From the IMG/VR virus record IMGVR_UViG_3300028048_002144: a DNA stretch of 64,000 nucleotides, one strand, 5' to 3'. Positions 6,069-62,337 of this stretch are shown here, in pieces. The stretch comes from a virus (Duplodnaviria; Caudoviricetes). The stretch's first letter is position 1, and every line of letters starts with the position of its first letter. Under the pieces are notes generated by a model. That model was not told the origin of the DNA, did no database searches, and was given only the letters and a program-made list of their open reading frames with translations. The position numbers were made by a program, and so were the translations under genes.

Positions 6069-6993
6069 AAGACAGTTCTTTAACTGATACTGTTTTAGTA
6101 AGACGTTTAGCTATATTTTTTACCTTTTCTTTGTCAAATTCTACAAGAATAGCTTTTCTTTTTGTTTCTATAGCAGCTTCACCAGTAACACCAGATCCGG
6201 CAAAAGGATCTAAGATTATTTCATTTTCATTTGTAAGAAATTCAATAATCTGTTTATATAATTCTACTGGTTTTTCCGAACAAGATATTCGCTCTTTTTT
6301 AGGAACTGCCTGTACATCGAAACAAGTTGGTAGCATTCCTTTTGCTCCACTCATAAAACGTGTAGGATTTCCATTTTCATCTAATCCTCTCTGTTTATCT
6401 GGGCGTAAAGCTCTAGCTTTACCTTTAGAAAAGATCATAATATCTTCAGTATTCTTTGCACATCTTCCCGTATTAGATACAAAAGTGCCTTTCTTCCAAG
6501 GGATTTTTGCATAATACTCAAATCCACATTCCTTAGCCCAGGATTTAATCTGATACAAGTATTCAAAATTCGTAGCAGATTCTGGTGGTAATACTTCAAC
6601 TAAAAATGCTCCATCTTCTAAAACTCTTGCCTTTTCAATGAAATCTTCTTTTGTATATCTAAAAGTTTCATAGTCGGCAAAATTTCGATTTCCACCTTTA
6701 GTTGATTTCTTATCATCCCAAGGGTGATCGCATAATAGCAGCTGAATTGAATTATCCTTAATACTATCTAATTTTCTTCCGTTACCCTCAATCAGCAAAA
6801 CAGATTCATCTTCAGTAAGATAAAGACCTCTGCCTACTTTCTGAAACAAGATGCCTAGGTTTTCGTATATTCTTGCTCTTACAGATTCTGGGTTTGATTC
6901 TGGATTAACTTCATACGCTTCTTTTAAAGAAAATGATTTTCCCTTAAATACTTCTATAATATTGTTAACAATACTCATTTTATCTCCTTTCAT
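6061..6993 (-). CDS. DNA methyltransferase (N4-C/N6-A, beta-class order) with N-terminal HTH-like region
   Basis: DHPW (motif IV variant) precedes EKPVEL..ILDPFAGSG (motif I). Confidence 0.85.
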   Translation of the reverse strand: MKGDKMSIVNNIIEVFKGKSFSLKEAYEVNPESNPESVRARIYENLGILFQKVGRGLYLTEDESVLLIEGNGRKLDSIKDNSIQLLLCDHPWDDKKSTKGGNRNFADYETFRYTKEDFIEKARVLEDGAFLVEVLPPESATNFEYLYQIKSWAKECGFEYYAKIPWKKGTFVSNTGRCAKNTEDIMIFSKGKARALRPDKQRGLDENGNPTRFMSGAKGMLPTCFDVQAVPKKERISCSEKPVELYKQIIEFLTNENEIILDPFAGSGVTGEAAIETKRKAILVEFDKEKVKNIAKRLTKTVSVKELSFA

Positions 6994-20225: not shown

Positions 20226-20309
20226 TGGATAGGGTAGGACTTGAACCTACAATGTCAATAAGACGACAGTTTTACAGACTGCTGCATTACCAATTCTGCT
20301 CATCTATCC
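20226..20309 (-). tRNA. tRNA-Tyr(GTA)
   Basis: Cloverleaf; anticodon arm GCAGT-CTGTAAA-ACTGT, V-arm, GGTTCAAGTCC, A73; no encoded CCA. Confidence 0.9.
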
Positions 20310-20329
20310 ATATTCTATTCAATGTCTAT

Positions 20330-20524
20330 TTATTGTAAAAAATACATAATTAAAATTGAAGCTCCAAACAATATAAAAGCTTTAAGCATAGCTTGTATAC
20401 TATCAATTTTTCTTTCATCTTTTGTATTTTGATAAGATAAATAAGGAATAAGTCCTTTAAATACAAAATAAACCATTGAAATTGATGTACCTACTATTGC
20501 TGATATAAATAAAATAGTTTTCAT
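20330..20524 (-). CDS. Small membrane protein
   Basis: 64 aa, two TM segments, RBS. Confidence 0.55.
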   Translation of the reverse strand: MKTILFISAIVGTSISMVYFVFKGLIPYLSYQNTKDERKIDSIQAMLKAFILFGASILIMYFLQ

Positions 20525-20568
20525 TTTCTTTTCCTCTTTTAATAAGCATTAAGATAAATACATTTAAA

Positions 20569-20657
20569 AGTAGGTGATCGGAATCGAACCGATGATCTAT
20601 AAATAAGACGTACAGTTTTGCAGACTGCCTTCTCGAACCAACAGAGAATTCACCTAC
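20569..20657 (-). tRNA. tRNA with GCA (Cys) anticodon and long variable arm
   Basis: GTAGGTG/CACCTAC acceptor, U73, GCAGT-CTGCAAA-ACTGT, ~18-nt V region, GGTTCGATTCC. Confidence 0.85.
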
Positions 20658-20835
20658 ATATATAATTATTTTTCTTTGGTAGTTTGCAATATTGGATATT
20701 TGTTCTAGGTTTAGGGCATTGTTCTAATGGTTTCCATTTGAAGCTATCCATTAAATATCCTAGAACACATTGCATTTCGTATTTGCTACAAGGACTAGAT
20801 TCAAGTGCTCTACATCCATCACATGATTTTTTCAT
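20650..20835 (-). CDS. Small Cys-rich protein
   Basis: SCDGC..C..C..C; stop codon overlaps the tRNA 5' end. Confidence 0.55.
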   Translation of the reverse strand: MKKSCDGCRALESSPCSKYEMQCVLGYLMDSFKWKPLEQCPKPRTNIQYCKLPKKNNYICR

Positions 20836-20837
20836 AA

Positions 20838-21134
20838 TTATCCTTCTTTACTATCTATCCATATAAGTGTAGCTGGAGCAATTACCAGATAAAATATTGC
20901 AATTTTACTAAGAGTTTTCGGTATCAACAAAAAAATTTTCGGAATTAAAAAGAAACACAATAGATCAATAAGATAAAGTCCTGCTATCATGCGTGGAACA
21001 AATCTTTTTGCATGTTCTTCCATTTCATGTTCAGCCTCTCCAATCTTTGTAGTTTTCTCTTCTGGAGAAAGTTCTTCATTAGTTATTGTGCTTGTCACTT
21101 TTGTTGCAAACTTCATATATTCCTTGAGAAACAT
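20838..21134 (-). CDS. Membrane protein
   Basis: 98 aa, C-terminal TMs. Confidence 0.6.
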   Translation of the reverse strand: MFLKEYMKFATKVTSTITNEELSPEEKTTKIGEAEHEMEEHAKRFVPRMIAGLYLIDLLCFFLIPKIFLLIPKTLSKIAIFYLVIAPATLIWIDSKEG

Positions 21135-21155
21135 TTCTTTACTCCCTATTAAAAT

Positions 21156-21488
21156 CTACCAGCCTATTGTTAATAAATCCAAGCATGTTTCATTATCATG
21201 TGTAAATTCTTGATATCCTACTACAATCATTTCCGGATCATAAGAGTCATAGTCTAAAGGATTAATCTTTCCATTTTCGATTTTAAACACACCACAAAAA
21301 CCAAACACATTTGACCATCCAGGAATTTTACTTACATCATGTAACTGGATTACAGCATATTTATCCGAAAATAAATCTGTTTTATCAAACTCAGTTGGCT
21401 TTTCTAAAAATGAAAAATCTTTATAGTCATCAGTATTTAATACACGTTGTTTAAGTTTTTCAAAGGTTTCTTTTTCATTCATTATCAT
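21156..21488 (-). CDS. Hypothetical protein
   Basis: 110-aa ORF, operonic. Confidence 0.6.
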   Translation of the reverse strand: MIMNEKETFEKLKQRVLNTDDYKDFSFLEKPTEFDKTDLFSDKYAVIQLHDVSKIPGWSNVFGFCGVFKIENGKINPLDYDSYDPEMIVVGYQEFTHDNETCLDLLTIGW

Positions 21489-21784
21489 GCCTCAAAACAA
21501 TTTTTATTAGTTTTTGTTTCTGGGTTTTCTGCTAATATTGAATCAAGAATTACTACTCGTGTTCTTTTGGTTTGTTGTCTAAATTTTTCTAAATCACGAT
21601 CATCACTAACAAAATATGTATCTGTGTAATTACACTCTAACTCTCTTTTAACAACATCAGAAACAGATTCATATTGCTGACGTTTTGCGTATCGCAAAAA
21701 TGCTGCTTTAGCAGCTTCGAAAAAGGGATCTCCTTCTTCTTTTTTAGGCTTAAAAAGATTTTTTATACAAGATAATACTTTCAT
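21485..21784 (-). CDS. Hypothetical protein
   Basis: 99-aa ORF, AAGGAG RBS. Confidence 0.6.
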   Translation of the reverse strand: MKVLSCIKNLFKPKKEEGDPFFEAAKAAFLRYAKRQQYESVSDVVKRELECNYTDTYFVSDDRDLEKFRQQTKRTRVVILDSILAENPETKTNKNCFEA

Positions 21785-21823
21785 ATTTTCATTCTCCTTA
21801 TAAATTCAATTATGTTTCTAACA

Positions 21824-22120
21824 TTAATTGTCCTGTAATAATATAATAAGATTTTTCAGAGCTTCTTCTGGAGTATTGCCTTTACCGATAATATAATCGT
21901 TTACATCATGGTCAGGATCATTTCCTTCCCAAAAGTTTTGGCATTCAACATCTCCTGCATCAACAGGAAGTTCAAAAAATATATATGATGGAGATAGATT
22001 AAACGCAAGAAAGCAAGCTCCCGAATATGCTCCACCATATCTGTCTTCGATAATGCAAAGAGGACATGGTATTTTTAAATTTATAAGTTCAGATGATTTC
22101 TGGTTTAAATCTTTATTCAT
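21824..22120 (-). CDS. Hypothetical protein (start MNKDL at 22120)
   Basis: AAGGAG RBS before 22120; the longer track ORF runs through tRNA-His. Confidence 0.6.
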   Translation of the reverse strand: MNKDLNQKSSELINLKIPCPLCIIEDRYGGAYSGACFLAFNLSPSYIFFELPVDAGDVECQNFWEGNDPDHDVNDYIIGKGNTPEEALKNLIILLQDN

Positions 22121-22143
22121 ATTTTCGTTCTCCTTATAAAAAG

Positions 22144-22229
22144 GGTGAAGGAGGAGACTCGAACTCCCACGAGCATTACACTCGGCAGATCCACAATCTG
22201 CTGCGTCTTCCAATTTCGCCACCAACACC
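22144..22229 (-). tRNA. tRNA with GTG (His) anticodon, G-1:C73, Leu-like D arm and long variable arm
   Basis: G-GTGTTGG..TGGCGAAATTGGAAGACGC..GCAGA-TTGTGGA-TCTGC, V-arm CGAG..CTCG, GTTCGAGTC; two U.U acceptor mismatches. Confidence 0.85.
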
Positions 22230-22232
22230 CTA

Positions 22233-22307
22233 TTGCAGAACTGGGAGTCGAACCCAGTATCTCGAGATTATGAGACTCGAATGGTATATCCGTTCCACTC
22301 TTCTGCC
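22233..22307 (-). tRNA. tRNA-Met(CAT), initiator-like and divergent
   Basis: CTCATAA loop, unpaired 1:72 (G/A), A73; lacks the GGG:CCC anticodon stem. Confidence 0.75.
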
Positions 22308-22345
22308 ATGTTATAAAATTATTACAACTAGATTTAGGAAGGTCT

Positions 22346-22416
22346 CTCCCCAGTACAGGACTCGAACCTTGATTTCTTCGTTTCCAAAGTGTTCTACCGA
22401 TTGAACTAACCGGGGA
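22346..22416 (-). ncRNA. tRNA-like RNA with a GAAA tetraloop instead of an anticodon loop
   Basis: 8-bp acceptor TCCCCGGT/ACTGGGGA, D arm GTTC-AATCGGTA-GAAC, stem CTTTG-GAAA-CGAAG, GGTTCGAGTCC. Confidence 0.75.
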
Positions 22417-22441
22417 TTCGCCTTCCATGTCTAATTGTTTA

Positions 22442-22514
<73 letters not shown>

Positions 22515-22638
22515 CTATTAATAATTAATGTCTACGGTCCGAAAACGCCTCGTCTGCAGCCGATACCTTTTATACTGAAATAACAGTTTAAGCATGGCCA
22601 AAAACTGTGCAAACGTATACACAAGGAATAGACAGTAG

Positions 22639-22711
22639 TGATTCCTGCGAGAATCGAACTCTGCATCTTAGCCTTGAAAGGGCTATGTCATAACCATTAG
22701 ACCAAGGAACC
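22639..22711 (-). tRNA. tRNA-Glu(TTC)
   Basis: TAGCC-CTTTCAA-GGCTA; one-base bulge in T stem. Confidence 0.92.
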
Positions 22712-22821
22712 ATGACTCGTTGTTTAGCTAATTTTTAAGTGGACAACGATAACCACTCGCACTAAATTGTAAAACATAAAGTTTCATTTAATAATTCAAG
22801 TTTAGCCTACTTGTTTATTTG

Positions 22822-23823
22822 TTATCTATCGTCTCCGATATCAAAATCGTCCATAGAATCCGAGATATCTTTTTCCTTTTTGATATTCGGTTCTGGCTTT
22901 TTGTAACATATATCTCCACGTTCTAAATGTATTTCTAAAGCGTGATCCAAAATACGTTCTTTTCTTTCTTGTATCATTGTCTTATAAAAATTCTTACGAG
23001 TATCTGATATGATAGGTGTCTCATCAATGATTTTATTGATTTTATCCATATCAATATTTGGAACGATTTTCGCAATTGCTCTTACACAATTAATATCATC
23101 ACTTGAATTAAGCATCTCGTGATAAGTGTATTTTTCTGCATGCTTAATGTCATCTGTTTTTAATAGTGCTGCTTTAGGAAAATCGTACATTCTTCTATCG
23201 ATTTCTTCCCTGCTACTTAGAATTTTTTCAAATGCCTTTTCAGCCAATCCAGGATATAAAGAACTACCACAATCATAAACAGGTGCTAAACGAATTGTTC
23301 GTTCTTGTTCATTAACAAGATATCCCCAGTTCCCCTTATGGCGATCAAAATTGCCAATCAAAGCATCTGCAACAAATGTATCCCAATACCTAGCTATCGA
23401 TTCATCTCTAATTACGGATAATAGAGATCGATCTATGGTTCCATATATTTGATTGTATGTTGGTATGCGACCAATCTCGTTTTTTCTATATACAGTACGC
23501 ATAAACCAATCGAACTCCTGAAGCTTTTCACCTGGTTGTACAAAGTCTTTACATGCAACAACCGGTTCATCCTCATACACACCTAATAAAGTATCGTGTG
23601 TTGGTAATCCCAAAGATCCTACTATATGGCTACCAATGTATTCTGAGAATACGCTGTTTGAGGTGCTTGTTGTCAAATCATTAATCTTTTGTTTTTCATC
23701 GGCAAATTTAAGCATATAATGTTCGCCATTATAAATGATTGATTTCTTAGAATCTGAACCACCATAATCACGCAAACCTTGTTGTGCATATGTAAAATCA
23801 ATGATTTGTTCCATATATACCAC
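22822..23823 (-). CDS. HipA/CtkA-family Ser/Thr kinase
   Basis: YGGSDSK P-loop, YMLKF, SEYIGS, DALIGNFDRHKGNWG, LAPVYDCGSSL. Confidence 0.88.
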   Translation of the reverse strand: MVYMEQIIDFTYAQQGLRDYGGSDSKKSIIYNGEHYMLKFADEKQKINDLTTSTSNSVFSEYIGSHIVGSLGLPTHDTLLGVYEDEPVVACKDFVQPGEKLQEFDWFMRTVYRKNEIGRIPTYNQIYGTIDRSLLSVIRDESIARYWDTFVADALIGNFDRHKGNWGYLVNEQERTIRLAPVYDCGSSLYPGLAEKAFEKILSSREEIDRRMYDFPKAALLKTDDIKHAEKYTYHEMLNSSDDINCVRAIAKIVPNIDMDKINKIIDETPIISDTRKNFYKTMIQERKERILDHALEIHLERGDICYKKPEPNIKKEKDISDSMDDFDIGDDR

Positions 23824-24064
23824 CTCTACAGTAATAATCTTTTAAAGCTTCTTGTTGTTCTCGTGTCAAATCGATATCATATGAATTAATATCCGAACGA
23901 AGATTGTCCATGTAACAATCTGGAAGCTCGCCACCACTGTTTAAATACTCTAACAATTCATCGATATCTCTTTGAATCAAATACGGAATATTAAAATCGA
24001 ACTTCTTTGCATAATACATATATTGTGCTCCTTTTAAATATGTATATCTTTTTATTTGAAACAA
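23798..24064 (-). CDS. Small protein overlapping the kinase start; putative antitoxin
   Basis: AGGAG RBS before MYYAK (~24019); overlapping two-gene unit. Confidence 0.55.
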   Translation of the reverse strand: MFQIKRYTYLKGAQYMYYAKKFDFNIPYLIQRDIDELLEYLNSGGELPDCYMDNLRSDINSYDIDLTREQQEALKDYYCRGGIYGTNH

Positions 24065-24138
24065 AATAACGTTCCATATAATTAGTATAACATTATCATT
24101 TCTACATTATTTACAAAAATAGATTCGATTTAAAGGAA

Positions 24139-24195
24139 TAGCGATAACCGGATTCGAACCGATACCTTGCAAATGCACCATTACACCATATCGCC
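24139..24195 (-). ncRNA. Minimal tRNA-like RNA lacking the anticodon arm
   Basis: GGCGATA/TATCGCT acceptor, TGGTGTAATGGTGCAT D arm, 9-nt linker TTGCAAGGT, ATCGG-TTCGAAT-CCGGT T arm; 57 nt. Confidence 0.7.
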
Positions 24196-24422
24196 ATCAG
24201 ACCGTTTTTAGTCGCCTTTAAAGTTTAATCTCAAAGGATCTCTTGAGTGCGTGATCAAACTCTGTGTCTTTTAATGCCCTATAGGCTCTGTTCTTTAATG
24301 CCCTGTAGGCATGATACTATGATAGGTTTATGGTCTCTTATCCCCGACCTCTCGGATATGTTTAAAGTCTCTAACCCGACTAATTTTGAATCGTCCACTA
24401 AAGCAGGACCTCTCTAATTTTA

Positions 24423-24767
24423 TCAACTATTTTTAACTAGGATATTCTTCATAAAAATATAGTCATTCAAAAAATCTTGTATTTTAGCCTTAACCTTTAT
24501 TGATCCTAGAGTATCTTTCGTTCTATTCATTGTTGAAAATACTAAATCTCTTCTTTTTACATCATCATCAATAAAATAACGGGTATCACAATGAAGAGAA
24601 TTACAAAGTAGTTCTAAATCAAAAGTATTAATTTCTTCGTAAGCAAGTTCATTAGCAATTAGTTTCTTAATTACATCTTCATCTACAAAAGACTCTTTAG
24701 ATAAAATAGAACAATCAATATTCAACATATTCATTCTTTTACGCAATTCATTACCAATGTACTTCAT
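24423..24767 (-). CDS. XRE-like HTH protein
   Basis: IGNELRKRM..LSKES.VD..I..L..LCNSLHC pattern. Confidence 0.55.
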   Translation of the reverse strand: MKYIGNELRKRMNMLNIDCSILSKESFVDEDVIKKLIANELAYEEINTFDLELLCNSLHCDTRYFIDDDVKRRDLVFSTMNRTKDTLGSIKVKAKIQDFLNDYIFMKNILVKNS

Positions 24768-25012
24768 ACGTAAACTCCTATTTAACTATGCTTACAAAAG
24801 ATATCAAAAATATTATTTATCGTGTTTTAGATGATAGAATTTTCATCCAAATCAATCTATATGTATGAATTAAAGACTCTGTGTATTCTTGCATTTCTTT
24901 TAGAATTTTTGGATCTTCAATATGCTTAGGATACCCATATTTTGTTGCATTTAAAAACAAGTGTATCTTAACGTATTTCTCTCGTATTTTTAATTCTTCC
25001 TCAGTCGTATGG

Positions 25013-25198
25013 TTACCAATATGTATTCCATACTGACCAAACTATTATTTTTAACCAAAACGGAACTTTTTTCATTTCTTGAATCATTTCTGGGTGATCT
25101 ATAATATAAATAATTTTACATTTCTCAAGATAAATACGAATAAGAATAAGAATAAGAATTACTATAATTGCTCCAATTGTAATAATAGTTTCATTCAT
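25013..25198 (-). CDS. Small membrane protein (start MNETII)
   Basis: AAAGGGAAG RBS; the longer track ORF overlaps tRNA-Trp. Confidence 0.5.
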   Translation of the reverse strand: MNETIITIGAIIVILILILIRIYLEKCKIIYIIDHPEMIQEMKKVPFWLKIIVWSVWNTYW

Positions 25199-25231
25199 TA
25201 TTGCAATATCTTCCCTTTCTAAAACACTGAG

Positions 25232-25315
25232 CAGGCGTGGAGAGATTCGAACTCTCAGTATCCTTTCGGAGTCATGGTTTTGGAGACCACTGCTGTTCCG
25301 TTGAGCCACACGCCT
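25232..25315 (-). tRNA. tRNA with CCA (Trp) anticodon and long variable arm
   Basis: AGGCGTG/CACGCCT, G73, GTGGT-CTCCAAA-ACCAT, V-arm TCC-GAAA-GGA. Confidence 0.88.
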
Positions 25316-25370
25316 ATAAATAAGTATCAATATTAAGCAATTGTCTAAAATACGAGGTCTCAATACATCA

Positions 25371-25455
25371 GGAGCGTTGCAGGGAATTGAACCCTAAACT
25401 AGTATTTTCCTTCGGCTCAGAACCGCTGTGCTATCCGTTACACCAAACAACGCTC
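25371..25455 (-). tRNA. Atypical tRNA-like RNA, possible CTG (Gln) anticodon
   Basis: 8-bp acceptor GAGCGTTG/CAACGCTC, D arm GTGT-AACGGATA-GCAC, weak CGG-TTCTGAG-CCG arm, extended central region, GGTTCAATTCC. Confidence 0.6.
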
Positions 25456-25552
25456 ATATAGGTAATTTAGGCATTTTGCCAGGGTTTTATGTTGCCAGAT
25501 GCCTCCATCTTAGCGCAATCTTAAAACCACAACCTATTTACCCACATTTTAA

Positions 25553-25636
25553 CGCAGTATCCAGGACTCGAACCTGGAAACCATTTCTGGATGCTTGATT
25601 AGTAGTCAAGTGCTGTACCAATTGAGCCAATACTGC
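25553..25636 (-). tRNA. tRNA-Ser(ACT), A34 anticodon
   Basis: GCAGTAT/ATACTGC, G73, CTTGA-CTACTAA-TCAAG, V-arm CCA-GAAA-TGG. Confidence 0.88.
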
Positions 25637-25803
25637 ATAATTAATGCAGCTCCTCTTGTCTCGAACCTTTACAGATAGGAAAGTTAGCTATTCTTTCGTT
25701 CGTCTGTTTTCCCCAGATCAAATATGCTGGTCTGTCAGGGGACTCAAGGATACTGCTTTAACTAGGTCGTAATGCCTAAAATACGAGGTCACAATGCCCC
25801 AAG

Positions 25804-25875
25804 CGACTCTACTGGGAATCGAACCCAAATCTTCGGATAGACAGTCCGACATAATAGCCGTTATACCATAGAGCC
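25804..25875 (-). tRNA. tRNA-Asp(GTC)
   Basis: TCGGA-CTGTCTA-TCCGA, G73. Confidence 0.93.
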
Positions 25876-26137
25876 ATAGTGCCTACCAATTCACATTATC
25901 ATACATGGGGGGAGGTTCAAATATGTATGAATATGCTATAAGCTCGGCTTTGCTTCCATTTCAAAAGGAGAATTCTAATAATGAAAATAAACGCAGTAAA
26001 CTATAAACAAAATGAAAGGGGAATACTAAAACAAACACAAAAAAAGTGAATGGTATTTAGTAAACATGCGCTTATTCTATTATTAGAGTGCATCTAATGG
26101 GATTCGAACCCATACTCTATTGCTAGAAAGGGATTTT

Positions 26138-26823
26138 CGTACCACTATATCTTTCAATACCCATCTGTGTATATGGTTTGTGGTCTGGAATCAATCTTTG
26201 CCCACTACTAAAAGTGTTGGGGCAGGACATGTATATTCTCTACGCACTCACTTAATAGTGATTGGCACGGTATTGCTACTAGGAAAAGTTTCACCGTTTA
26301 GTGTCCATTCAGCGTAAATATTCCTATTTACCTGCTCATGCTTACCAGAGTAATTCAACTTCTTTTAGTCTGTTTTCCATTCGATATAAAAGTTTATAAC
26401 TATGACTACCTACTTTTCCTGAACATGATTTACTACAAGTTAAATAACGTGTTCTACCACGATTTATATCAACATAAAATCTTGTCCATTTATCGCTTTT
26501 CATAACAAACTTAGCACCACAAATAATACAGGTTTCAATTGTATCTTTGTATTTTCTAGAATGTTGTTTTTGATGCTCACCATGAACTAAAATTTCTAAA
26601 TTAGATAAATCATTATTATCTGGGTTTTCGTCTTTATGATGAACATCTTCTTCTGGCTTTAATGGCCTGCCTAGCTTCTTCGCCATTAAAATTCGAGGAT
26701 ATGAAATTACATGTGGTTTGCCATTTTCATCTACACAGTAAGCTCTCCACCTGCCATCCCTGCATTTGTAAGCTTTTTTAATAAAAAGATCCATATGCTA
26801 TCCTCTCTAAGGCCTTACTATCT
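26138..26823 (-). mobile_element. Group I intron (tRNA-Leu UAA site, IC3-like) carrying an HNH ORF
   Basis: Follows U34, ends in G; P/Q/R/S-like blocks AAACGGTGAAAC, AATACCGTGC, GCGTAGAGAAT, AAGATTGATTCCA. Confidence 0.88.
26342..26794 (-). CDS. Intron-encoded HNH homing endonuclease with C-terminal Zn finger
   Basis: LGRPL..EDVHHKDENPDNNDLSNLEI..H..H; CIICG..CSKSC. Confidence 0.9.
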   Translation of the reverse strand: MDLFIKKAYKCRDGRWRAYCVDENGKPHVISYPRILMAKKLGRPLKPEEDVHHKDENPDNNDLSNLEILVHGEHQKQHSRKYKDTIETCIICGAKFVMKSDKWTRFYVDINRGRTRYLTCSKSCSGKVGSHSYKLLYRMENRLKEVELLW

Positions 26824-27109
26824 AAGTCCCTCGTGTCTGCCAGTTCCACCATAGATGCATATTTGTCTACTTAAAGAACCATTAGAAATGTAGACTTTAT
26901 TCTTTTTAATATAAGGATTTATGTTAATCGTACTACCCTATATTTGGAACCTGGTCAAAAATAAATAATAGATCAAAATAATAATAATATTGGTTAGTTA
27001 ACCTTCGTCTCTAATTCTGTTTGTAAATCTTCTTAAACCCATATCATAAGTCTTCCTTTCTGTAGCCTATTTTTTATTAATAAAATGAGTTTAATGCTTC
27101 ATTTTTTAA

Positions 27110-27181
27110 CAGCCCATACTGGATTCGAACCAGTGCATCAGGGAGTCAAATTCCCCTGCCTTACCGCTTGGCTAATGAGCT
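27110..27181 (-). tRNA. tRNA-Gln(TTG)
   Basis: AGCCAAGCGGTAAGGC D arm, GGGGA-ATTTGAC-TCCCT, G73. Confidence 0.93.
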
Positions 27182-27354
27182 AGATTGTGGGGTTTATCAA
27201 ACCCCACATGTAAAGATTGAGTTATCTCAAAAAAATAATGAGATAAAGGGTAGGTAGGATTTCTACCATGAAAGAAAGTATAAAATCAACATTGAGATAT
27301 CAAAAAGTATCAAAAATATATCTCGAACTATAGTGAAATGGATACTTTTTATAG

Positions 27355-27428
27355 CGGATTCGCCAGGACTCGAACCTGGGACATCATGATTAACAGTCAT
27401 GCGTTCTAACCGACTGAACTACGAATCC
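27355..27428 (-). tRNA. tRNA-Asn(GTT)
   Basis: Canonical cloverleaf, CATGA-CTGTTAA-TCATG. Confidence 0.95.
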
Positions 27429-27613
27429 ATACAGGAAACATCACTTTGATAAATGACGTTTCCAGGACATCCTTCTACAACATGGTAGACGATTATTCGA
27501 GGATTTTGATACCGCAGTTCCACAACTGCGTACAACAAACAGAAAGGAAGGTGACGTTACGTGAAGTGCGACCCCTATCTGTCTATTGCATTAAATTGTA
27601 AGAGACAGAGTGT

Positions 27614-28221
27614 TACATAAACACTCTATAAGAATAACTGCCGAACTCGTTTTACTAACTTCGCTCTATTCTTAATAGCACCACTATATTCGATCACATG
27701 GAAGATACATGCGAACCTAAATTGTACGGGTTTAGGCTATGTACCCTGGCAAGCCATGAAAGGACTGATACCTTTAACTTTCACCACCATTCGCATTAAA
27801 ATAACAGATCCTTATAAATCTTCTGTTTTTAAGATTTTAATGCAAGCATTAGGCTACTCGTACAGACTTCTATTCTTATTGGTAAGAATTTCTTCTTACA
27901 TCTATGCTTTACCTACTTATTTGATTATTCCAACTGCAGTATCCCTTGTTATCACACGCAGGGCTTACAGGGTTCCCTACCTATTTCTAGTGGGCTTATT
28001 ATCGCAGGTGATAGTTTGTCTTATCTTTAGCTTCGTCTATCAAGATATGCCATAACCAACGTTTGAGAGGTTCCTCTCTTTTATCTCTATTATTACTAAT
28101 AAAGAAGTGGGCTCTCACATACACTATCGCATATGCTTATCCTTTGATTGCATTATGCCCTAGCAGAGTTGGCGACTCTTCTGCACTAGGATGGCAATTA
28201 TTCTTATAGAATGTTTATGTA
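27614..28221 (-). ncRNA. Large structured ncRNA, ROOL-like (~608 nt)
   Basis: 29-bp terminal helix whose two mismatches are both G.U on the minus strand; many internal stems; no credible ORF; inside a tRNA array; family assigned from size and context only. Confidence 0.7.
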
Positions 28222-28256
28222 TTTTTCAATGTGCATATTAAGCTATTAAAAGCTTA

Positions 28257-28336
28257 GGGGCACCTAGAGAGTCGAACTCTAACCGGTGTTTTGTCTTTCA
28301 GGACCGCTGATGTGCTACCGTTACACTAAAATGCCC
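28257..28336 (-). ncRNA. Atypical tRNA-like RNA (possible 8/4 fold) with no canonical anticodon loop
   Basis: GGGCATTT/AGGTGCCC, TA, GTGT-AACGGTA-GCAC, AGAG-TTCGACT-CTCT; central part resembles 25371-25455. Confidence 0.65.
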
Positions 28337-28463
28337 ATACTCAATGTTCTATTTAATGTGGGAACAAAGAAGCCACAGGGTAAAAGAAATGAATGAATTA
28401 ACAATCCAAGAAATCTTTGATATGAAGTCTTGAAATGATGCTGCCGACAATAACGACAGCAAG

Positions 28464-28537
28464 TGGACCATGTTGGACTCGAACCAACGACAGCTCGCTT
28501 ATGAGGCGAGTGGTCTAACCAACTGACCTAATGGTCC
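28464..28537 (-). tRNA. tRNA(CAT), probably Ile2 (lysidine type)
   Basis: GGACCAT/ATGGTCC acceptor as in Firmicute tRNA-Ile2; CTCGC-CTCATAA-GCGAG. Confidence 0.85.
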
Positions 28538-28665
28538 ATGCGAGAGACCAAAAATAAACAAGAGAAAGGAGACTGGTCTCTCTAAAACTATGAAAAAAAT
28601 ATTGATTTATTAAAGCAGAAAGCCCTATGCTCATATAAAACTTACGATAAGACCTTCTGCCTTAA

Positions 28666-28747
28666 TGACCCTGATGGGACTCGAACCCACATGAGCTACG
28701 CTCGCATGATTAAAAGTCATGTGCCATACCAATTAGGCGACAGAGTC
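28666..28747 (-). tRNA. tRNA with TTT (Lys) anticodon and long variable arm
   Basis: GACTCTG/CAGGGTC, A73, CATGA-CTTTTAA-TCATG, V-arm GAGC-GTA-GCTC. Confidence 0.88.
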
Positions 28748-40523: not shown

Positions 40524-41003
40524 TTATGTAATATTTGCTGCAAGATTTACAGAGGTAAGTCCGATACAATAACAAATATCGCAGGCAGTAAGATATTGAT
40601 TACTGTCTTTTCCATATCTGTTTTTTATATCCTTGAGCCTTTCAAATACAGTTACTTCATTTCCTTTACTATCAACTTGCATATCTGCCATGTTTAATAT
40701 TATATATTCATCTGTTATTTCAGTCGGATACTTACCATGTTCTTTAATTGCCTTATATAAAGGCTTTATTAAGTCGGAGCCAAAAGGGTCTTCATTCATA
40801 AACATTAACATTTTTGCACTTATATCTGGGTGCTCTGATTGTTTTTCTGAAAATTCATACCCAACATCATGAATCCAACCCAGCATAAAACATTTATAAC
40901 AAAAATCCTCTTCATAACCCATATCTTTCGCTATTTTATAAGCTTTACGGGCAACTCCTATAATATGATGAAGACGATCTTCTGATATACCGATATAATC
41001 CAT
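40524..41003 (-). CDS. HD-domain protein
   Basis: RLHH, WIHDVG, H..H, AD motifs. Confidence 0.85.
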   Translation of the reverse strand: MDYIGISEDRLHHIIGVARKAYKIAKDMGYEEDFCYKCFMLGWIHDVGYEFSEKQSEHPDISAKMLMFMNEDPFGSDLIKPLYKAIKEHGKYPTEITDEYIILNMADMQVDSKGNEVTVFERLKDIKNRYGKDSNQYLTACDICYCIGLTSVNLAANIT

Positions 41004-56099: not shown

Positions 56100-56323
56100 A
56101 AAATTATTCAGGTGCGGAAACCCACTACCTTTAGGTGGTGGGAGGAGCACCGTCCTCCTTTCGTTATGATATAGAATCTTGTCTCTCTGTTAAAAACAGT
56201 TTTGGCTTTTCTACCAACTGTATTCTCTCGTAACGTAGTGCTAACGAATTTCTGCTGTTGCACTTAGGCTAGTCAACTTTGGGCTTCTGCAAGCCCATTC
56301 CCTTTAGGGAATGGGTAGTTGAC
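56100..56323 (-). mobile_element. Non-autonomous IS200/IS605 (IscB-type) element with truncated omegaRNA and no ORF
   Basis: GTCAACTACCC..CTAAAG..GGGCTTG..AAGCCC..GTTGACTAGCCTAAG..ACTACGTT; far-end hairpin CTCCCACCACCTAAAGGTAGTGGG; followed by ATGAA. Confidence 0.85.
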
Positions 56324-57065: not shown

Positions 57066-58559
57066 TTAATACACTCCTAAGTCTCCGAAGTTTCCCATGA
57101 AGGCTAGGAAGAATACTACCATGTCTATCATTAGTTTAGCTCCACCAAATATTTGTGGAGATAAGAATAACATGTACATACCGGCTATTGAGTTTTCATT
57201 AGCTAATCGCTCGGCTTTGTCTAACATTAAGTTATTTCGATTAATAATGTCTCGTATCTGCTGATTAACATCTCCACCAGATCCATTAGATATTGCATAG
57301 AACAACTTCATAGATGATGTTATTTCAGGCATATCAAAGAATTTCATGAATTCTATATATGGAAGTGATGCGTTAGGGTTTTCAGTTAAAGCATTACTTA
57401 ACTTGATAAGTTCTGGCTTTAATACCTCTCCAGCAGAATTAATACTCTTATACAATGCTACCTGTACGTTATTTGACTGCATAAGAAGTGCCATTTCCAT
57501 TAGCCATCTAGGGAACTGGATAGTAATTTCTTTCTTTAAGAGCTTTAATCTCTTTGCGTATACAATCTTATGTCTTAATAGAATGAATACAGCGAAGAAT
57601 GCAGCTAATACTAAAGCAAACCATTCAGCAGTATAAAAAGCTAATAATACTAAAATAATGGGAATTACTAGCATCTTTAAACTCTTCATAAATTCCGTTT
57701 TAGCATCATAGTTCATTATATACTTATAGTATCGTCTTACTTCGTTAGGGTTCATATTCTCTGTTCCTTTTAACCAGGATACAGAAATACTTTTATCTGT
57801 AAGGTAATATATAAACAAACTAGCTATGAATAATAAAGTAGATGTAACCTGTGTCAGAACCAAGTTCGAGATATTTACCTGGGATGGTAATATTCTCTCC
57901 ATGATGATACAGATGAGATATGATGTAATGATTGACATCATAATTGTCGTTTTCTTCTGTTTCTTTTCCTTCTGGAAGTCAAGTGTTCTGTCTACCCATT
58001 TAGTTCTATCAACAAGAAGAAGTTCAATAGTATCATCTACATCTCCTCCTCGTCTTTCAGCTTCAATTAGTACCTTATGTGCCTGCTTCATCTTGTTACA
58101 ATCATATTCTTTTTCGATATGATCAAGTGCAACTTCGATATTCTTATCTGTTACTAACTGCTCTGCTTCTCGGATTAACTTTCCCATTGGCCCATTTGCA
58201 AATAATGGTTCTACTTCCTTTAGAGATGTTAGTATTTTCTTATTTCCTCTGAATGAATAAAGCATTTGTTCTATATACTGAGATACATCAGAGAACTTCT
58301 GCTGTTCAAATCTCTGCTTATATGCATTCATTATAATGGCTGGTAAGAATATAAATCCGGCCATTAGAGTAATAGACATAAATGGTGGTGTTAGCTTAAA
58401 CATGAATCCAGCTACTACAGTTAAGAAGAAATATACAAGGAAAATTATAAGGATACTTTTTACGGATATCTCATATCCATAAGTCTTTACCTCTGAACTT
58501 ATATTCTTCCAACTCATATAGTGGATTAAGCTTTGTATCTTTTTCTTTAGCTTTTCCAT
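57066..58559 (-). CDS. Fused TadB/TadC-like pilus assembly platform protein
   Basis: Two T2SS-F-like halves with TMs, directly downstream of the TadA-like ATPase. Confidence 0.75.
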   Translation of the reverse strand: MEKLKKKIQSLIHYMSWKNISSEVKTYGYEISVKSILIIFLVYFFLTVVAGFMFKLTPPFMSITLMAGFIFLPAIIMNAYKQRFEQQKFSDVSQYIEQMLYSFRGNKKILTSLKEVEPLFANGPMGKLIREAEQLVTDKNIEVALDHIEKEYDCNKMKQAHKVLIEAERRGGDVDDTIELLLVDRTKWVDRTLDFQKEKKQKKTTIMMSIITSYLICIIMERILPSQVNISNLVLTQVTSTLLFIASLFIYYLTDKSISVSWLKGTENMNPNEVRRYYKYIMNYDAKTEFMKSLKMLVIPIILVLLAFYTAEWFALVLAAFFAVFILLRHKIVYAKRLKLLKKEITIQFPRWLMEMALLMQSNNVQVALYKSINSAGEVLKPELIKLSNALTENPNASLPYIEFMKFFDMPEITSSMKLFYAISNGSGGDVNQQIRDIINRNNLMLDKAERLANENSIAGMYMLFLSPQIFGGAKLMIDMVVFFLAFMGNFGDLGVY

Positions 58560-58576
58560 ATGTGGATCCTTTCTGA

Positions 58577-60061
58577 TTACTTCTGGCTTTTATATGCCAT
58601 AATCTTTTCCTCTATTGAATTTTCATCTTGTATTAGTTCTGGTTCAAGGGCAGCCATTTTTATATTTTCATTATTATTCTCATCTGAATTATTCTTGTTT
58701 GGTTCAGTATCATTAGCCTTTACAACATCAGTAGCTTTTAAATTAAGCTTATCTCCCCAAATAGCTGCAGCTTTTTCTTTGTCCATTTTATCTTTCTTTG
58801 TTTCTTTATAGCCCTGCTCTATTAAGTTTTCTTTTACAAGCTCATTTTCAAATGGATTTGTAATCTGGGCATTCTTGAATTTCTTCTTTATCTTTGAAGG
58901 AATTACTGTTCGATAGAATTCTCCATCATCTAATAACAGATAACATTTATTTTCCCCTTCATCATTTGAGAAGAATCCGATCTGATCGATATATCGTCTC
59001 TGTCCACCTTTTCCATCTGGTTTCATAGATACCATGATCGCTACATCTATGAATTCATATACGTTATTCTTGAATCGCTTCTCTACAATACTATCATCAA
59101 TCATGTTTACCATTCGTTCTGGTACTTTTCTTACATCATCTGTATGTAGTGTAGTGATTCCGTTTACACCAGTAGTAAATCCCTGCATAAGATACTTAAC
59201 TTCGTTTGCTCTTGTTTCAGCGATCATTATCCAGTCTGGATTCTGCTTTAGTGATGCTACAATTGCGTCTGAATATGTAATATCTTTATTAGTCTTCATT
59301 TCAATTACATCTGCAGTTGGATTCAAGGCTTTATAATGCCATTCAAGTACATCTTCAATAGTGATTACTCTTTCGAGATCAGGGATATACTTTGAAATAA
59401 ATTTTGCAAGCTCTGTTTTTCCGGCTCCAGGGTTTCCACAAATAATTACATTCATATGTGCTTTTACGAAATTAGCAAGCAAACATAATACTGGTTCGCT
59501 TACATAAGCTTCTTCAAGAGCTTTACCTTCTTTGATTCGTTCTACTACAGGTGTCTTTCTGATACAGATAGATAATCCTGTCTGAGCAATAGATGGATGC
59601 ACAGATGAAAAACGAAGATCTTTTGTTTCAGCTTCCAAGAATGGATTCTTCTGATTGAATTCCTGGGACTGGATATTTGCTACGTTCTGCGCAAGCTTTG
59701 TCATAGCTTCGATTGTTAATTTACTCTTATCGAAGTATTCTGGTGTATGTCCATCTTCGATTTCTTTTCCATTTGCATCGTATTTCGCTAACATATCCTC
59801 TCCGTCTTTAGCTTTCCAATGACGGTTATAGATATCTGTTAATACTAATTCTCCATTGTTATAGTCTACGTCAGTTATATCTGTATTCTGTACGTAACCT
59901 TTAATGGATTCGAAATCCTCTATAAACAACTGAAATCCAGCATGTGTTTCTGATGCCTGGACTCCTTCTTTCTGTTCGATCTTTTCTTTTATTGTGAATG
60001 CGTCATCTGAAAAAACGTTTTTATTATCAATCGTTTCTTCGGGTATTTTTTTATTGAACAT
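58577..60061 (-). CDS. cpaF: TadA/CpaF (VirB11-like) ATPase
   Basis: ICIRK, GNPGAGKT, ITIEDVLE, QNPDWIMIAETR, TTLH. Confidence 0.88.
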   Translation of the reverse strand: MFNKKIPEETIDNKNVFSDDAFTIKEKIEQKEGVQASETHAGFQLFIEDFESIKGYVQNTDITDVDYNNGELVLTDIYNRHWKAKDGEDMLAKYDANGKEIEDGHTPEYFDKSKLTIEAMTKLAQNVANIQSQEFNQKNPFLEAETKDLRFSSVHPSIAQTGLSICIRKTPVVERIKEGKALEEAYVSEPVLCLLANFVKAHMNVIICGNPGAGKTELAKFISKYIPDLERVITIEDVLEWHYKALNPTADVIEMKTNKDITYSDAIVASLKQNPDWIMIAETRANEVKYLMQGFTTGVNGITTLHTDDVRKVPERMVNMIDDSIVEKRFKNNVYEFIDVAIMVSMKPDGKGGQRRYIDQIGFFSNDEGENKCYLLLDDGEFYRTVIPSKIKKKFKNAQITNPFENELVKENLIEQGYKETKKDKMDKEKAAAIWGDKLNLKATDVVKANDTEPNKNNSDENNNENIKMAALEPELIQDENSIEEKIMAYKSQK

Positions 60062-60620: not shown

Positions 60621-61169
60621 TTACACATACGAATTCTGTAAAAACTCTATTGTTTTTTCGTGGTAATTAGCATTCTCCGTCTTACTCATTAAATCGAACG
60701 CTTCTTCTCTAGTTAATGCGTCTCGATATGGTCTTGACGATGTTAATGCTTCATACACATCTATCGTATGCAGGATCTTTGCATATTCTAGTATCTTTTC
60801 CGTTTTCTTAAATTCAACCGGCATTAATGTTTCAGGATTTTCAGTATGATGATACAGTATGATGTATCGAACTTCTTCACTTATGTTCGTTTCATTTAAT
60901 AGTTCAAAACTAAAATATGCATGGTAGTTAACTATCTTTCTTTCAAGATTAGTTAATCGTCCAGGTTTATTCAGAATGCTTTCTGATAGGTAATATTTTC
61001 CTACGTCATGGAATAATGCTGCGGTAGATAAAACCCCTTCATCTAAATTTAGGGTTTGTTCTAAAACCTTCGCTATGTTATACATTCTGATACTGTGTCT
61101 TCGGGTAATTAAGGGTAATCTCTCTACGAGTTCACTTTCCTTATCTCCCCACTGGTCAAAATTTTCCAT
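60621..61169 (-). CDS. HD-GYP-family protein (putative c-di-GMP phosphodiesterase)
   Basis: TRRHS, FHDVGK, ILNKPGRL, YHH, IDVYEALTSSRPYR; canonical GYP not evident. Confidence 0.85.
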   Translation of the reverse strand: MENFDQWGDKESELVERLPLITRRHSIRMYNIAKVLEQTLNLDEGVLSTAALFHDVGKYYLSESILNKPGRLTNLERKIVNYHAYFSFELLNETNISEEVRYIILYHHTENPETLMPVEFKKTEKILEYAKILHTIDVYEALTSSRPYRDALTREEAFDLMSKTENANYHEKTIEFLQNSYV

Positions 61170-61537
61170 CTATTTCTTAGCAGGATACCTCGATTTTTAT
61201 AAGTCAAGAATCCCCTACGTCTCCTTTCTGTAAATTACTGATATGTTTATTGCTATAAGCCGGTACATACCAACCGTAATGCAGCCTTCGCCAATGTTAT
61301 TATGAGGTTTTTGTAAGCAACACTGTTCCTACCCATCAGAACTGTTTAATCACTTACCTTAGAGCTACAGACTAGGCTGTACATCCGTAGGTAACTATAC
61401 ATGACAATGAAACTGCTAATGTTTCATTGTATATTCTCATATAACGTAGTCAGTTAAGACTTAGGCTAGTCAATTAAGGCTTTTACAAGCCTCCACTTCA
61501 ATGATTATGAAATAATCGTAAGTGGTGGGTTATTGAC
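61170..61537 (-). mobile_element. Non-autonomous IscB-type element with near full-length omegaRNA (HEARO) and no iscB ORF
   Basis: GTCAATAACCCACCAC..GGCTTG..AAGCC..TTGACTAGCCTAAG..ACTACGTT..GTTACC..GCTCTAAGG..TTAAACAG..AACAGTG..AACATTGGCGAAG..AGAAAGGAG; followed by ATGGA. Confidence 0.9.
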
Positions 61538-61645
61538 ATATAATTTCCTTTTAGTTTTTGTTTACATTTTTAATATGACAGATGTATATTTTTATATTTG
61601 GGCATGAAAAAAGACCGTTATTTTAAACGGTCTTTTATTAAAATA

Positions 61646-61984
61646 TTAACTTCTATATGTTGCAGCAAAGAATCCTATTAAAATATTATCATCTCTCATC
61701 ACCTCATAATTTGTTTCTTTGTAATAAGTGTCCTGTGTCAACCAATCGGTATATATTCGATAGATAATCCTGGCTATTTTAAAACTTCTTTCATCTACTG
61801 ATAAGTCTTTATAAGTATTCGATGATCCAAATTCTTCGTTCCAAATCTTATCTACTAATTTCTCTGCTCGATCAGATTCAGACATATCAGTATCAAAAAG
61901 AAATAAATTAAGCAGTTTTCTTTTGCATCTTGTTTCGCTCATACCATTAAGTTTTAAATACACAGTGCTGGTCACTAATCCCAT
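61646..61984 (-). CDS. Hypothetical protein
   Basis: 112-aa ORF, operonic. Confidence 0.6.
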   Translation of the reverse strand: MGLVTSTVYLKLNGMSETRCKRKLLNLFLFDTDMSESDRAEKLVDKIWNEEFGSSNTYKDLSVDERSFKIARIIYRIYTDWLTQDTYYKETNYEVMRDDNILIGFFAATYRS

Positions 61985-62337
61985 AGCTTCCTAACCTCCA
62001 ATTCTTTTCCATGCTCCATTAAGTATGGTTTAATATCATGAATAAGCTTAACAGCGTTTTCTTCTAATAGATTTATGCTTGCAAATGCGATAGATTTTTC
62101 ATCACAGCTTTCTAAAACAAGATAATATTCTCTCTTACAAGAAAATATTGTTGTTCTAATATTCTTATATCTAGGTTCTGTTTTGATGGTTTCGTTTATC
62201 GAAATTAAATCAAACAGGTTGCCTTTAAATATAAAGCGATGAACTTCTTTGTTATTGACACGAGTATTTACTTTTTCGTTTTTAATTTCTTCTTTTGTAG
62301 AAGAATTAAAATCTTTAGGCGAAAATGTATAGTCCAT
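61975..62337 (-). CDS. Hypothetical protein; weak resemblance to the MecA C-terminal domain
   Basis: FIFK..DLI..YYLVL..E..L.EHG pattern. Confidence 0.5.
   Translation of the reverse strand: MDYTFSPKDFNSSTKEEIKNEKVNTRVNNKEVHRFIFKGNLFDLISINETIKTEPRYKNIRTTIFSCKREYYLVLESCDEKSIAFASINLLEENAVKLIHDIKPYLMEHGKELEVRKLWD

What the first reader, a model, noticed from the sequence alone, without database searches (positions are those of the whole stretch)
61170..61537. IscB-less full omegaRNA inserted at the HD-GYP start codon; its guide would be the gene's own RBS region
Seen: a near-complete HEARO/omegaRNA scaffold ends in an orphan AGAAAGGAG with no iscB. Excision restores AAAGGA-AATTATAT-ATGGAAAAT. 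Established: IscB guides come from the 5' flank and need a 3' TAM. The guide here would be ..CTAAAAAGGAAATTATAT, transcribed from the TCATATT promoter at 61572, with target plus ATGGA present only in element-free alleles. This is a second, divergent element at a start codon within 5 kb. Inference: RNA-only satellites that use IscB/TnpA in trans, could cut element-free sister plasmids, and could switch the gene on by excision.
Basis: partly seen in the sequence, partly recalled or inferred. Interest (0 to 1): 0.8.

Follow-up and report, generated by a model that had tools for sequence, protein, structure and literature searches.

The report
IscB-less guide-RNA mini-transposon at start codon
A 368-base remnant of an RNA-guided (IscB-type) jumping gene, which kept its guide-RNA gene and both ends but lost the nuclease gene, sits exactly between a plasmid gene's ribosome-binding site and its start codon; this is a further example of a kind of element already described, not a new kind.

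Summary
Rfam HEARO (the IscB omegaRNA) matches 61276-61537(-) over the whole model at 128.6 bits (cut-off 83). No iscB follows it, and the element abuts the ATG of an HD-domain gene.

A full-length phage relative (L034) matches it up to the iscB ribosome-binding site and again over the last 39 bases. So this is an ISC (IS200/IS605-type) element with a 1.26-kb deletion that removed only iscB.

Such minis are common and mobile:
- About 10 of 52 sampled elements lack iscB.
- Three bacterial genomes hold 2-5 copies of one mini at different sites.
- Related elements start with GTCAA and end just before ATGR.
- 43% have a Shine-Dalgarno core just upstream, against 12% background.

The literature already covers the target rule (N|ATGA), the matching IscB TAM (TTCAT), protein-less PATEs that carry omegaRNAs, and stand-alone omegaRNAs working with IscB.

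Use of IscB in trans is plausible. Earlier notes place two IscB elements on the same replicon, but I could not see them. The excision-switch idea is weak: the distal end hairpin is degenerate and the window holds no transposase.

This scan had already noted the same stretch, its sibling mini and similar RBS-splitting elements elsewhere. New member of a known kind.

The parts
61572..61579 (-). Promoter-like word GTCATATT of the replicon, 34 nt upstream of the element. It would drive the transcript that carries guide, omegaRNA and HD gene.
Evidence: Sequence. KTCATATT occurs 38 times against 17.6 expected.
61606..61635 (-). Hairpin followed by a T-run that ends the upstream unit, so the HD gene with the element is its own transcription unit.
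   Evidence: Read from the sequence. The consensus scan did not list it because it has few G-C pairs.
61538..61553 (-). Predicted 16-nt guide, the 5' flank of the scaffold. It contains the gene's native Shine-Dalgarno core at 61546-61549.
   Evidence: Position relative to the HEARO start. The rule that IscB guides lie outside the transposon right end is from PMC10055086. No second match in the window.
61276..61537 (-). omegaRNA scaffold (HEARO), full model length. Its first about 60 nt double as the transposon right end with a strong subterminal hairpin.
   Evidence: 128.6 bits, model 1-211. The DNA fold of 61480-61550(+) gives -10.5 kcal/mol, z -3.84.
61398..61429 (-). Extra 32-nt stretch forming a perfect 10-bp hairpin, absent from the closest full-length relative. 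Its effect on IscB binding is unknown.
   Evidence: Gap in the L034 alignment and an insertion in the cmscan alignment.
61216..61275 (-). 3' extension of the omegaRNA beyond the Rfam model, ending in the former iscB ribosome-binding box GAAAGGAG (61221-61228).
   Evidence: 78% identity to L034 runs through to 61216. The omegaRNA terminal hairpin contains the SD of the nuclease gene (PMC9581776).
61206..61215 (-). Deletion junction. In L034, 1268 nt holding the 415-aa IscB ORF lie between the two matching blocks; here only 10 nt do.
   Evidence: Two BLAST blocks, 61538-61216 and 61205-61167. The L034 ORF is IscB: PF14239 at 221.7 bits plus HNH.
61170..61218 (-). Distal transposon end (left end on the + strand) with a weak subterminal hairpin at 61180-61218.
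   Evidence: 32 of 39 identical to the distal end of L034, E 2e-6. RNA fold -11.8 kcal/mol, z -0.7. DNA fold of the + strand -0.7 to -0.9 kcal/mol, no better than shuffles.
61165..61169 (+). TCCAT on the transposon top strand, which is ATGGA on the gene strand. This is the target / TAM position and includes the HD start codon 61167-61169.
   Evidence: The family's right flank is ATGR. N|ATGA target in PMC4810608; TTCAT TAM of GstIscB in PMC10055086.
60621..61169 (-). HD-domain gene (182 aa; HD_5 / HDIG, no GYP motif) whose RBS and start codon are split by the element.
   Evidence: PF13487 70.7 bits and PF01966 63.1 bits; TIGR00277 38 bits; translation.
56100..56323 (-). Second, shorter iscB-less element of the same kind, also between an SD and an ATG. 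Its omegaRNA lacks the middle of the model.
   Evidence: HEARO 46.4 bits at 56169-56323; sequence; its end hairpin folds at -11.4 kcal/mol as DNA, z -2.55.

Best explanation
The stretch 61170-61537(-) is a non-autonomous ISC element of the IS200/IS605 superfamily. An internal 1.26-kb deletion removed the iscB nuclease gene. Both transposon ends and the whole omegaRNA gene remain.

Like its relatives, it landed directly upstream of an ATGR motif. Here that motif is the start codon of an HD-domain gene, so the gene's ribosome-binding site now lies 368 nt upstream of it.

Inferred steps:
1. The gene's own promoter transcribes flank, omegaRNA and gene as one RNA. The RNA therefore carries a guide equal to the gene's RBS region, joined to an intact scaffold.
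2. If IscB from the full-length copies reported elsewhere on this replicon loads that RNA, the complex would cut any element-free copy of the site (guide match followed by ATGGA). Repair from a filled copy would then restore the element (cut-and-copy homing). I put this step at about 0.4.
3. The occupied site is safe, because the scaffold replaces the TAM.
4. Further transposition or excision would need a Y1 TnpA in trans. It looks unlikely now, because the distal hairpin has decayed.

The identity of the element is close to certain (about 0.9).
For: - Full-length HEARO match at 128.6 bits.
- Two-block homology to the full-length IscB element L034, with only the iscB ORF missing.
- In the omegaRNA tree this copy groups with L034 and with a Lachnospiraceae mini, L146.
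- Nine other iscB-less elements of the same build were traced in phages and bacteria. Their HEARO scores (86-157 bits) are as high as those of iscB-linked copies (100-155 bits).
- Identical minis sit at 2, 5 and 5 different loci in three genomes. Homology starts at GTCAA and stops just before ATGAA.
- A Shine-Dalgarno core lies 4-18 nt upstream in 39 of 91 distinct insertions, against 11.7% background, p 8e-14.
- The promoter-like word and a terminator-like hairpin upstream make the gene its own transcription unit.
- Published rules: the guide lies outside the right end, outside transcription is needed, the TAM equals the transposase target, PATEs often encode omegaRNAs (PMC10055086), and stand-alone omegaRNAs function with IscB (PMC9581776, citing Altae-Tran 2021).
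- Earlier notes report IscB elements on the same replicon. One has a left end reading SITHHLRLF, which is what this element's first 27 nt encode.
Against: - No IscB or TnpA lies in the 64-kb window, and I could not read the rest of the replicon. Compatibility of this omegaRNA with a resident IscB is therefore untested.
- A 32-nt hairpin not present in the nearest relative sits inside the scaffold.
- The distal end hairpin barely folds.
- Two of five mini-bearing genomes show no IscB, and one has only broken copies. Some mini copies there have mutated termini. So minis can persist and decay without any nuclease.
- No empty allele was found.
- There are no expression data.
Confidence: 0.6

Rival explanations
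1. Inert fossil. The element is a dead deletion product of an IscB transposon. Its omegaRNA looks intact only because the deletion is recent. It is neither used by IscB nor mobile, and it merely lengthens the 5' leader of the HD gene.
For: - The distal hairpin is degenerate.
- The neighbouring mini at 56169-56323 has already lost the middle of its omegaRNA.
- Mini copies in G008 have mutated 5' termini, and that genome has only broken IscB.
- G007 and G010 hold minis with no detectable IscB.
- iscB loss is recurrent and polyphyletic, as expected for simple decay.
Against: - The HEARO score equals that of iscB-linked copies.
- The scaffold is retained right up to the former iscB ribosome-binding box.
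- Minis have multiplied after losing iscB.
- IscB copies are reported on the same replicon.
- Stand-alone omegaRNAs are known to work (PMC9581776).
Confidence: 0.33
2. Reversible genetic switch. The insertion silences the HD gene by splitting RBS from ATG, and precise TnpA excision turns it back on.
For: - The native SD is moved 368 nt away from the ATG.
- IS200/IS605 excision is scarless (PMC10055086).
Against: - The end hairpin needed for excision is weak, and the window holds no transposase.
- The element carries a GAAAGGAG box 2 nt before the end hairpin, with 10 nt from the hairpin to the ATG. This box is also present in the other minis examined and could still serve translation.
- About half of all family insertions sit at such sites, including in bacterial chromosomes. 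That fits tolerated insertions better than switches.
Confidence: 0.05

Closest known systems
Stand-alone omegaRNAs that work with IscB in trans (Altae-Tran et al. 2021, as cited in Hirano et al. 2022, PMC9581776)
   Same: An omegaRNA gene without an adjacent iscB. The proposed use of a nuclease encoded elsewhere is the same.
   Different: Here the origin is traceable as a precise iscB deletion inside an otherwise complete transposon. It lies in the 5' leader of a gene on a plasmid-like replicon. Activity is untested.
PATEs, protein-less IS200/IS605 derivatives of Geobacillus stearothermophilus that often encode omegaRNAs (Meers et al. 2023, PMC10055086)
   Same: Both ends are kept, there is no protein gene, an omegaRNA is retained, and both transposase and nuclease are needed in trans. 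The TAM (TTCAT) is nearly the same as here (TCCAT).
   Different: Different host group (gut or rumen Lachnospiraceae and their phages and plasmids). The placement between SD and start codon, and the ribosome-binding box before the end hairpin, are not described in the parts of that paper I read.
ISC transposons (Kapitonov et al. 2016, PMC4810608)
   Same: 5' terminus GTCA, insertion directly upstream of ATGA without duplication, subterminal hairpins, non-autonomous.
   Different: ISC elements encode IscB and this one does not. The paper does not mention start codons or ribosome-binding sites.
HEARO RNA, Rfam RF02033
   Same: Full-length match well above the gathering score.
   Different: HEARO is defined together with its downstream HNH-nuclease ORF, which is missing here.

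Membership tests
HEARO / IscB omegaRNA (RF02033) | Covariance-model score at or above the gathering score over the full model | tested here: met
   128.6 bits against 83, model positions 1-211 of 211.
HEARO / IscB omegaRNA (RF02033) | Lies directly upstream of an IscB (RRXRR + HNH) ORF | tested here: not met
   The next ORF is the HD gene. No IscB similarity in the window. The relative L034 has the ORF.
ISC / IS200-IS605 transposon | 5' terminus GT(CA), and insertion directly upstream of ATGA/ATGR without target duplication | tested here: met
   The element starts with GTCAA at 61537 and is followed by ATGGA. Same-genome copies of related minis share homology from GTCAA to just before ATGAA. 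No empty allele of this locus was found, so the exact junction rests on the family.
ISC / IS200-IS605 transposon | Subterminal imperfect hairpins at both ends, for Y1 TnpA | tested here: inconclusive
   The right-end hairpin is strong (-10.5 kcal/mol, z -3.84). The left-end hairpin is no better than shuffles (-0.7 to -0.9 kcal/mol), although it is homologous to that of L034.
ISC / IS200-IS605 transposon | A Y1 TnpA is available to move it | not testable with these tools
   None in the window. Y1 TnpA is present in 4 of 5 other mini-bearing genomes.
PATE / MITE-like non-autonomous derivative | Both transposon ends, no protein-coding capacity, several copies at unrelated sites | tested here: met
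   Ends and the lack of an ORF. Two divergent minis in this window. Related minis occur 2, 5 and 5 times in three genomes.
Trans-acting stand-alone omegaRNA | A compatible IscB in the same cell, and cleavage guided by this RNA | not testable with these tools
   Only earlier notes report IscB elements 77-80 kb upstream. The translated left end matches over nine residues.
IS607-type element | Serine recombinase partner and a shared core dinucleotide at both junctions | not tested
   No recombinase search was done. The base before GTCAA varies among 91 insertions, which argues against a fixed shared core.

The most novel reading that the evidence does not exclude
IscB-type elements of gut Firmicutes and their phages and plasmids, including their nuclease-less minis, may be specialised to live inside translation-initiation regions.
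- Their target and TAM (ATGR) is the start codon.
- Their guide is the gene's ribosome-binding region.
- The host gene's promoter makes the guide RNA.
- A conserved ribosome-binding box just before the end hairpin keeps the split gene translated.

On a multicopy plasmid, such an RNA-only mini would act as a homing or addiction module that borrows IscB to destroy element-free copies.
Probability: 0.25. Interest if true: 0.55.

Novelty: new member of a known kind. Interest (0 to 1): 0.3.

Why it matters
The finding gives a clean natural example of how an RNA-guided transposon sheds its nuclease yet keeps its guide RNA. It also shows that such minis go on multiplying.

The family-wide habit of sitting between ribosome-binding site and start codon explains three things:
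- why these elements are tolerated in phage and plasmid genes;
- how their promoter-less guide RNAs get transcribed;
- why genome annotation often mis-calls gene starts at such sites.

If the minis really use IscB in trans on a plasmid, they would be a simple model for RNA-only selfish elements. None of this changes current understanding of OMEGA systems.

Tried and rejected
- **Source and empty allele.** No genome is held. There was no match in phage records, and the only plasmid match was a 53-nt HEARO core in a Cetobacterium plasmid. HD-protein relatives are absent from viral and metagenome contigs, and the one in genome contigs is distant (26% identity). The predicted empty-site pattern is absent from metagenome contigs.
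- **Empty sites of relatives.** Patterns for L034 and L013 were not found in viral contigs.
- **Tools and papers unavailable.** The 2009 HEARO paper is not held.
- **Chance hits.** The 15-mer used to collect relatives is short enough to hit by chance in genome contigs (about a thousand expected by my own estimate). I kept only loci that also showed other HEARO motifs or a cmscan hit.
- **Shared ATG rejected.** I considered that ATG is shared by both junctions as a direct repeat. The base before GTCAA varies across the family, so I dropped it.
- **Single mini lineage rejected.** I considered that all minis descend from one ancestor. The omegaRNA tree shows them scattered among full-length elements, and the deletion junctions differ.
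- **Deletion by direct repeats, left open.** Similar GAAAGGAG-type boxes flank iscB, one as its SD and one as the C-terminal codons for YL(T/I)ERR. This could explain the deletion, but it stays an inference.

Full report
**1. The observation**

Rfam's HEARO model (RF02033, the IscB omegaRNA) matches 61276-61537 on the minus strand. The match covers model positions 1-211 of 211 at 128.6 bits (gathering score 83, E 2.5e-26).

The minus strand reads, in order:
- a hairpin with a T-run at 61606-61635;
- the replicon's promoter-like word GTCATATT at 61572-61579;
- 34 nt that include an AGGA core at 61546-61549;
- the scaffold, starting with GTCAA at 61537;
- a GAAAGGAG box at 61221-61228;
- a weak hairpin at 61180-61218;
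- ten more bases, then the ATG (61167-61169) of a 182-aa ORF.

That ORF is an HD_5 / HD / HDIG domain protein (PF13487 at 70.7 bits; TIGR00277). It has no GYP motif, so "HD-GYP" holds only at family level.

No iscB follows the omegaRNA. tblastn with 21 IscB proteins finds nothing in the window (best E 0.017). Two Y1 TnpA proteins also find nothing.

A second, degenerate HEARO lies at 56169-56323(-). It scores 46.4 bits, below the cut-off, and lacks the middle of the model. It also sits between an SD and an ATG. A permissive scan of 1-50500 found no further copy.

**2. What it is**

A 15-nt core shared by both window copies retrieved 39 stretches from viral contigs and 120 from genome contigs. 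Many of the genomic hits are chance hits and were filtered out.

The closest relative is L034, from a 253-kb phage contig:
- It matches the window from the base before GTCAA to 61216 at 78% identity.
- It matches again from 61205 to 61167 (32 of 39, E 2e-6).
- Between the two blocks L034 has 1268 nt holding a 415-aa ORF. That ORF is IscB (PF14239 RRXRR at 221.7 bits, plus HNH). The window has 10 nt there.

So the window element is an ISC-type transposon that lost only iscB. It kept the omegaRNA through to the former iscB ribosome-binding box, and it kept the distal end. That box is part of the omegaRNA terminal hairpin in the related IsrB system (PMC9581776).

Relative to L034, the window copy carries an extra 32-nt perfect hairpin at 61398-61429.

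**3. The kind is common and mobile**

- In the filtered sample, 39 omegaRNAs are followed by IscB. Thirteen with at least 1.7 kb of downstream sequence are not, and about ten of those are clean minis of the same build.
- The minis' HEARO scores (86-157 bits) are like those of iscB-linked copies (100-155 bits).
- In an omegaRNA tree the minis are scattered among full-length elements. The window copy groups with L034 and with a mini from a Lachnospiraceae MAG, L146. The deletion junctions differ between minis. iscB loss is therefore recurrent.
- Within single genomes the same mini occurs at 2 (G007), 5 (G008) and 5 (G009) unrelated loci, so minis transpose after losing iscB.
- HEARO hits outnumber intact IscB frames in those genomes. 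G007 and G010 show none, and G008 shows only broken ones. Y1 TnpA genes are present in 4 of the 5. These are incomplete MAGs, so absence is not proven.
- Some G008 copies have mutated 5' termini, a sign of decay.

**4. Where the family lands**

Copy comparisons put the boundaries at GTCAA and just before ATGAA (once GTGAA). Elements with the same kind of end hairpin are followed by ATGR wherever I could read the end. A sister subgroup ends differently.

The base before GTCAA varies. The ATG seen at both junctions of the two window elements is therefore a coincidence and not a direct repeat.

A core Shine-Dalgarno word lies 4-18 nt upstream of the left junction in 39 of 91 distinct insertions. 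Background in the same DNA is 11.7% (binomial p 8e-14).

In WIN1, WIN2, L185, L198, L199 and L026 the junction ATG itself opens the downstream gene. In several others the ATGAA lies just 5' of the gene's SD.

Published work already gives:
- the GTCA terminus, the N|ATGA target without duplication, and Y1 mobilisation in trans (PMC4810608);
- the omegaRNA at the right end with its guide outside the element, the need for outside transcription, the same-orientation bias, and a TTCAT TAM for GstIscB, which is ATGAA on the guide strand (PMC10055086).

The window's top-strand motif is TCCAT at 61165-61169.

I could not confirm it directly, because no empty allele exists in the collections.

**5. How it most likely works**

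Shown:
- the anatomy;
- the origin by deletion;
- the family's mobility and site preference.

Inferred:
- The HD promoter transcribes guide, scaffold and gene together.
- The RNA's guide is 61538-61553, the gene's own RBS region.
- The filled site is immune, because the scaffold follows the guide where ATGGA would follow it in an empty site.
- An IscB made elsewhere could use this RNA to cut empty copies and drive homing.

Two published statements make that last step reasonable. Stand-alone omegaRNAs function with IscB (PMC9581776, citing Altae-Tran 2021). PATEs often encode omegaRNAs that need a nuclease in trans (PMC10055086).

Earlier notes of this scan place two full-length IscB elements about 77 and 80 kb before the window. 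One note quotes a left end encoding SITHHLRLFYNC. This element's first 36 nt encode SITHHLRLFHNH, which suggests a closely related scaffold.

Against present mobility and the excision-switch idea:
- The distal hairpin folds no better than shuffled sequence as top-strand DNA (-0.7 to -0.9 kcal/mol).
- The neighbouring mini's hairpin gives -11.4 kcal/mol (z -2.55). L034's inner hairpin folds at -4.7 kcal/mol (centroid), although its whole-stretch fold is also no better than shuffles (z -0.96).
- The GAAAGGAG box lies 2 nt before the end hairpin, and the ATG lies 10 nt after it. The other minis examined also have a GGAGG-type box just before the end hairpin, mutated in a few copies. A folded hairpin could bring box and ATG together and keep the gene translated. 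This is a hypothesis only.

**6. Comparison and verdict**

The element works like, and is best filed with, the omegaRNA-bearing PATE / stand-alone omegaRNA class of ISC elements. It fails the HEARO family's "with ORF" feature by definition.

The earlier suggestion that this replicon's IscB elements have IS607-type ends is not supported by the family data here, but I did not examine that copy.

The concept is already published, the trans activity is untested, and the switch idea is weak. It is a new member of a known kind.

The same stretch (e1-5760394), its sibling mini (e1-5760378) and RBS-splitting TnpB elements in another genome (e1-5942805) were already noted in this scan.

Noticed in passing
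L018:560-2580 (IMGVR_UViG_3300032007_000052): A HEARO with only the first codons of iscB is followed by three 36-nt CRISPR-like direct repeats. The last repeat is fused to the body of a second HEARO in front of an intact 458-aa IscB. It looks like a CRISPR-associated IscB of the kind reported in 2021, in a complete 94-kb phage genome that has a third HEARO 5 kb away.
   Followed up: partly
G008 loci L187, L191, L198, L201, L203 against L194, L206: One bacterial MAG holds five copies of one iscB-less mini at different sites, while its only two iscB-linked copies are broken by stop codons. Three of the minis have mutated 5' termini.
   Followed up: partly
Family-wide: last about 30 nt of iscB ORFs in L003, L004, L011, L013, L031, L032, L034, L036 and others: The IscB C-terminus ends in a conserved YL(T/I)ERR peptide whose codons spell a GAAAGGAG-type ribosome-binding word just before the transposon end hairpin. 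The same word is the iscB SD at the other side of the ORF, so iscB is flanked by short direct repeats.
   Followed up: partly
window 61975-62337 (-): A 120-aa ORF with a weak, below-cut-off match to the C-terminal part of MecA (PF05389, E 6.7e-4, 19.8 bits against 22.5).
   Followed up: no
window 57066-60061 (-): A T2SSE-type secretion ATPase (PF00437, 76.5 bits) and a weak T2SSF-like membrane protein lie just downstream of the HD gene. The second mini splits the start region of the lipoprotein-like gene after them.
   Followed up: no
window 27624-28214 (-) and 20226-28747 (-): A ROOL RNA (205.4 bits) sits inside an array of at least 14 tRNA-like genes. Other reports of this scan already cover it.
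   Followed up: no
L011:5891-5947 and 6280-6337 (+): Two RAGATH-30 RNAs (70.7 and 66.4 bits) lie a few kb from an IscB element in a 202-kb phage contig.
   Followed up: no
G003 (IMGVR_UViG_3300028591_000074): 40727-40963, 91978-92214, 196219-196452: One complete 253-kb phage carries three IscB elements with mutually divergent omegaRNAs (131.6, 90.1 and 42.4 bits), each followed by a 411-416-aa IscB frame.
   Followed up: partly
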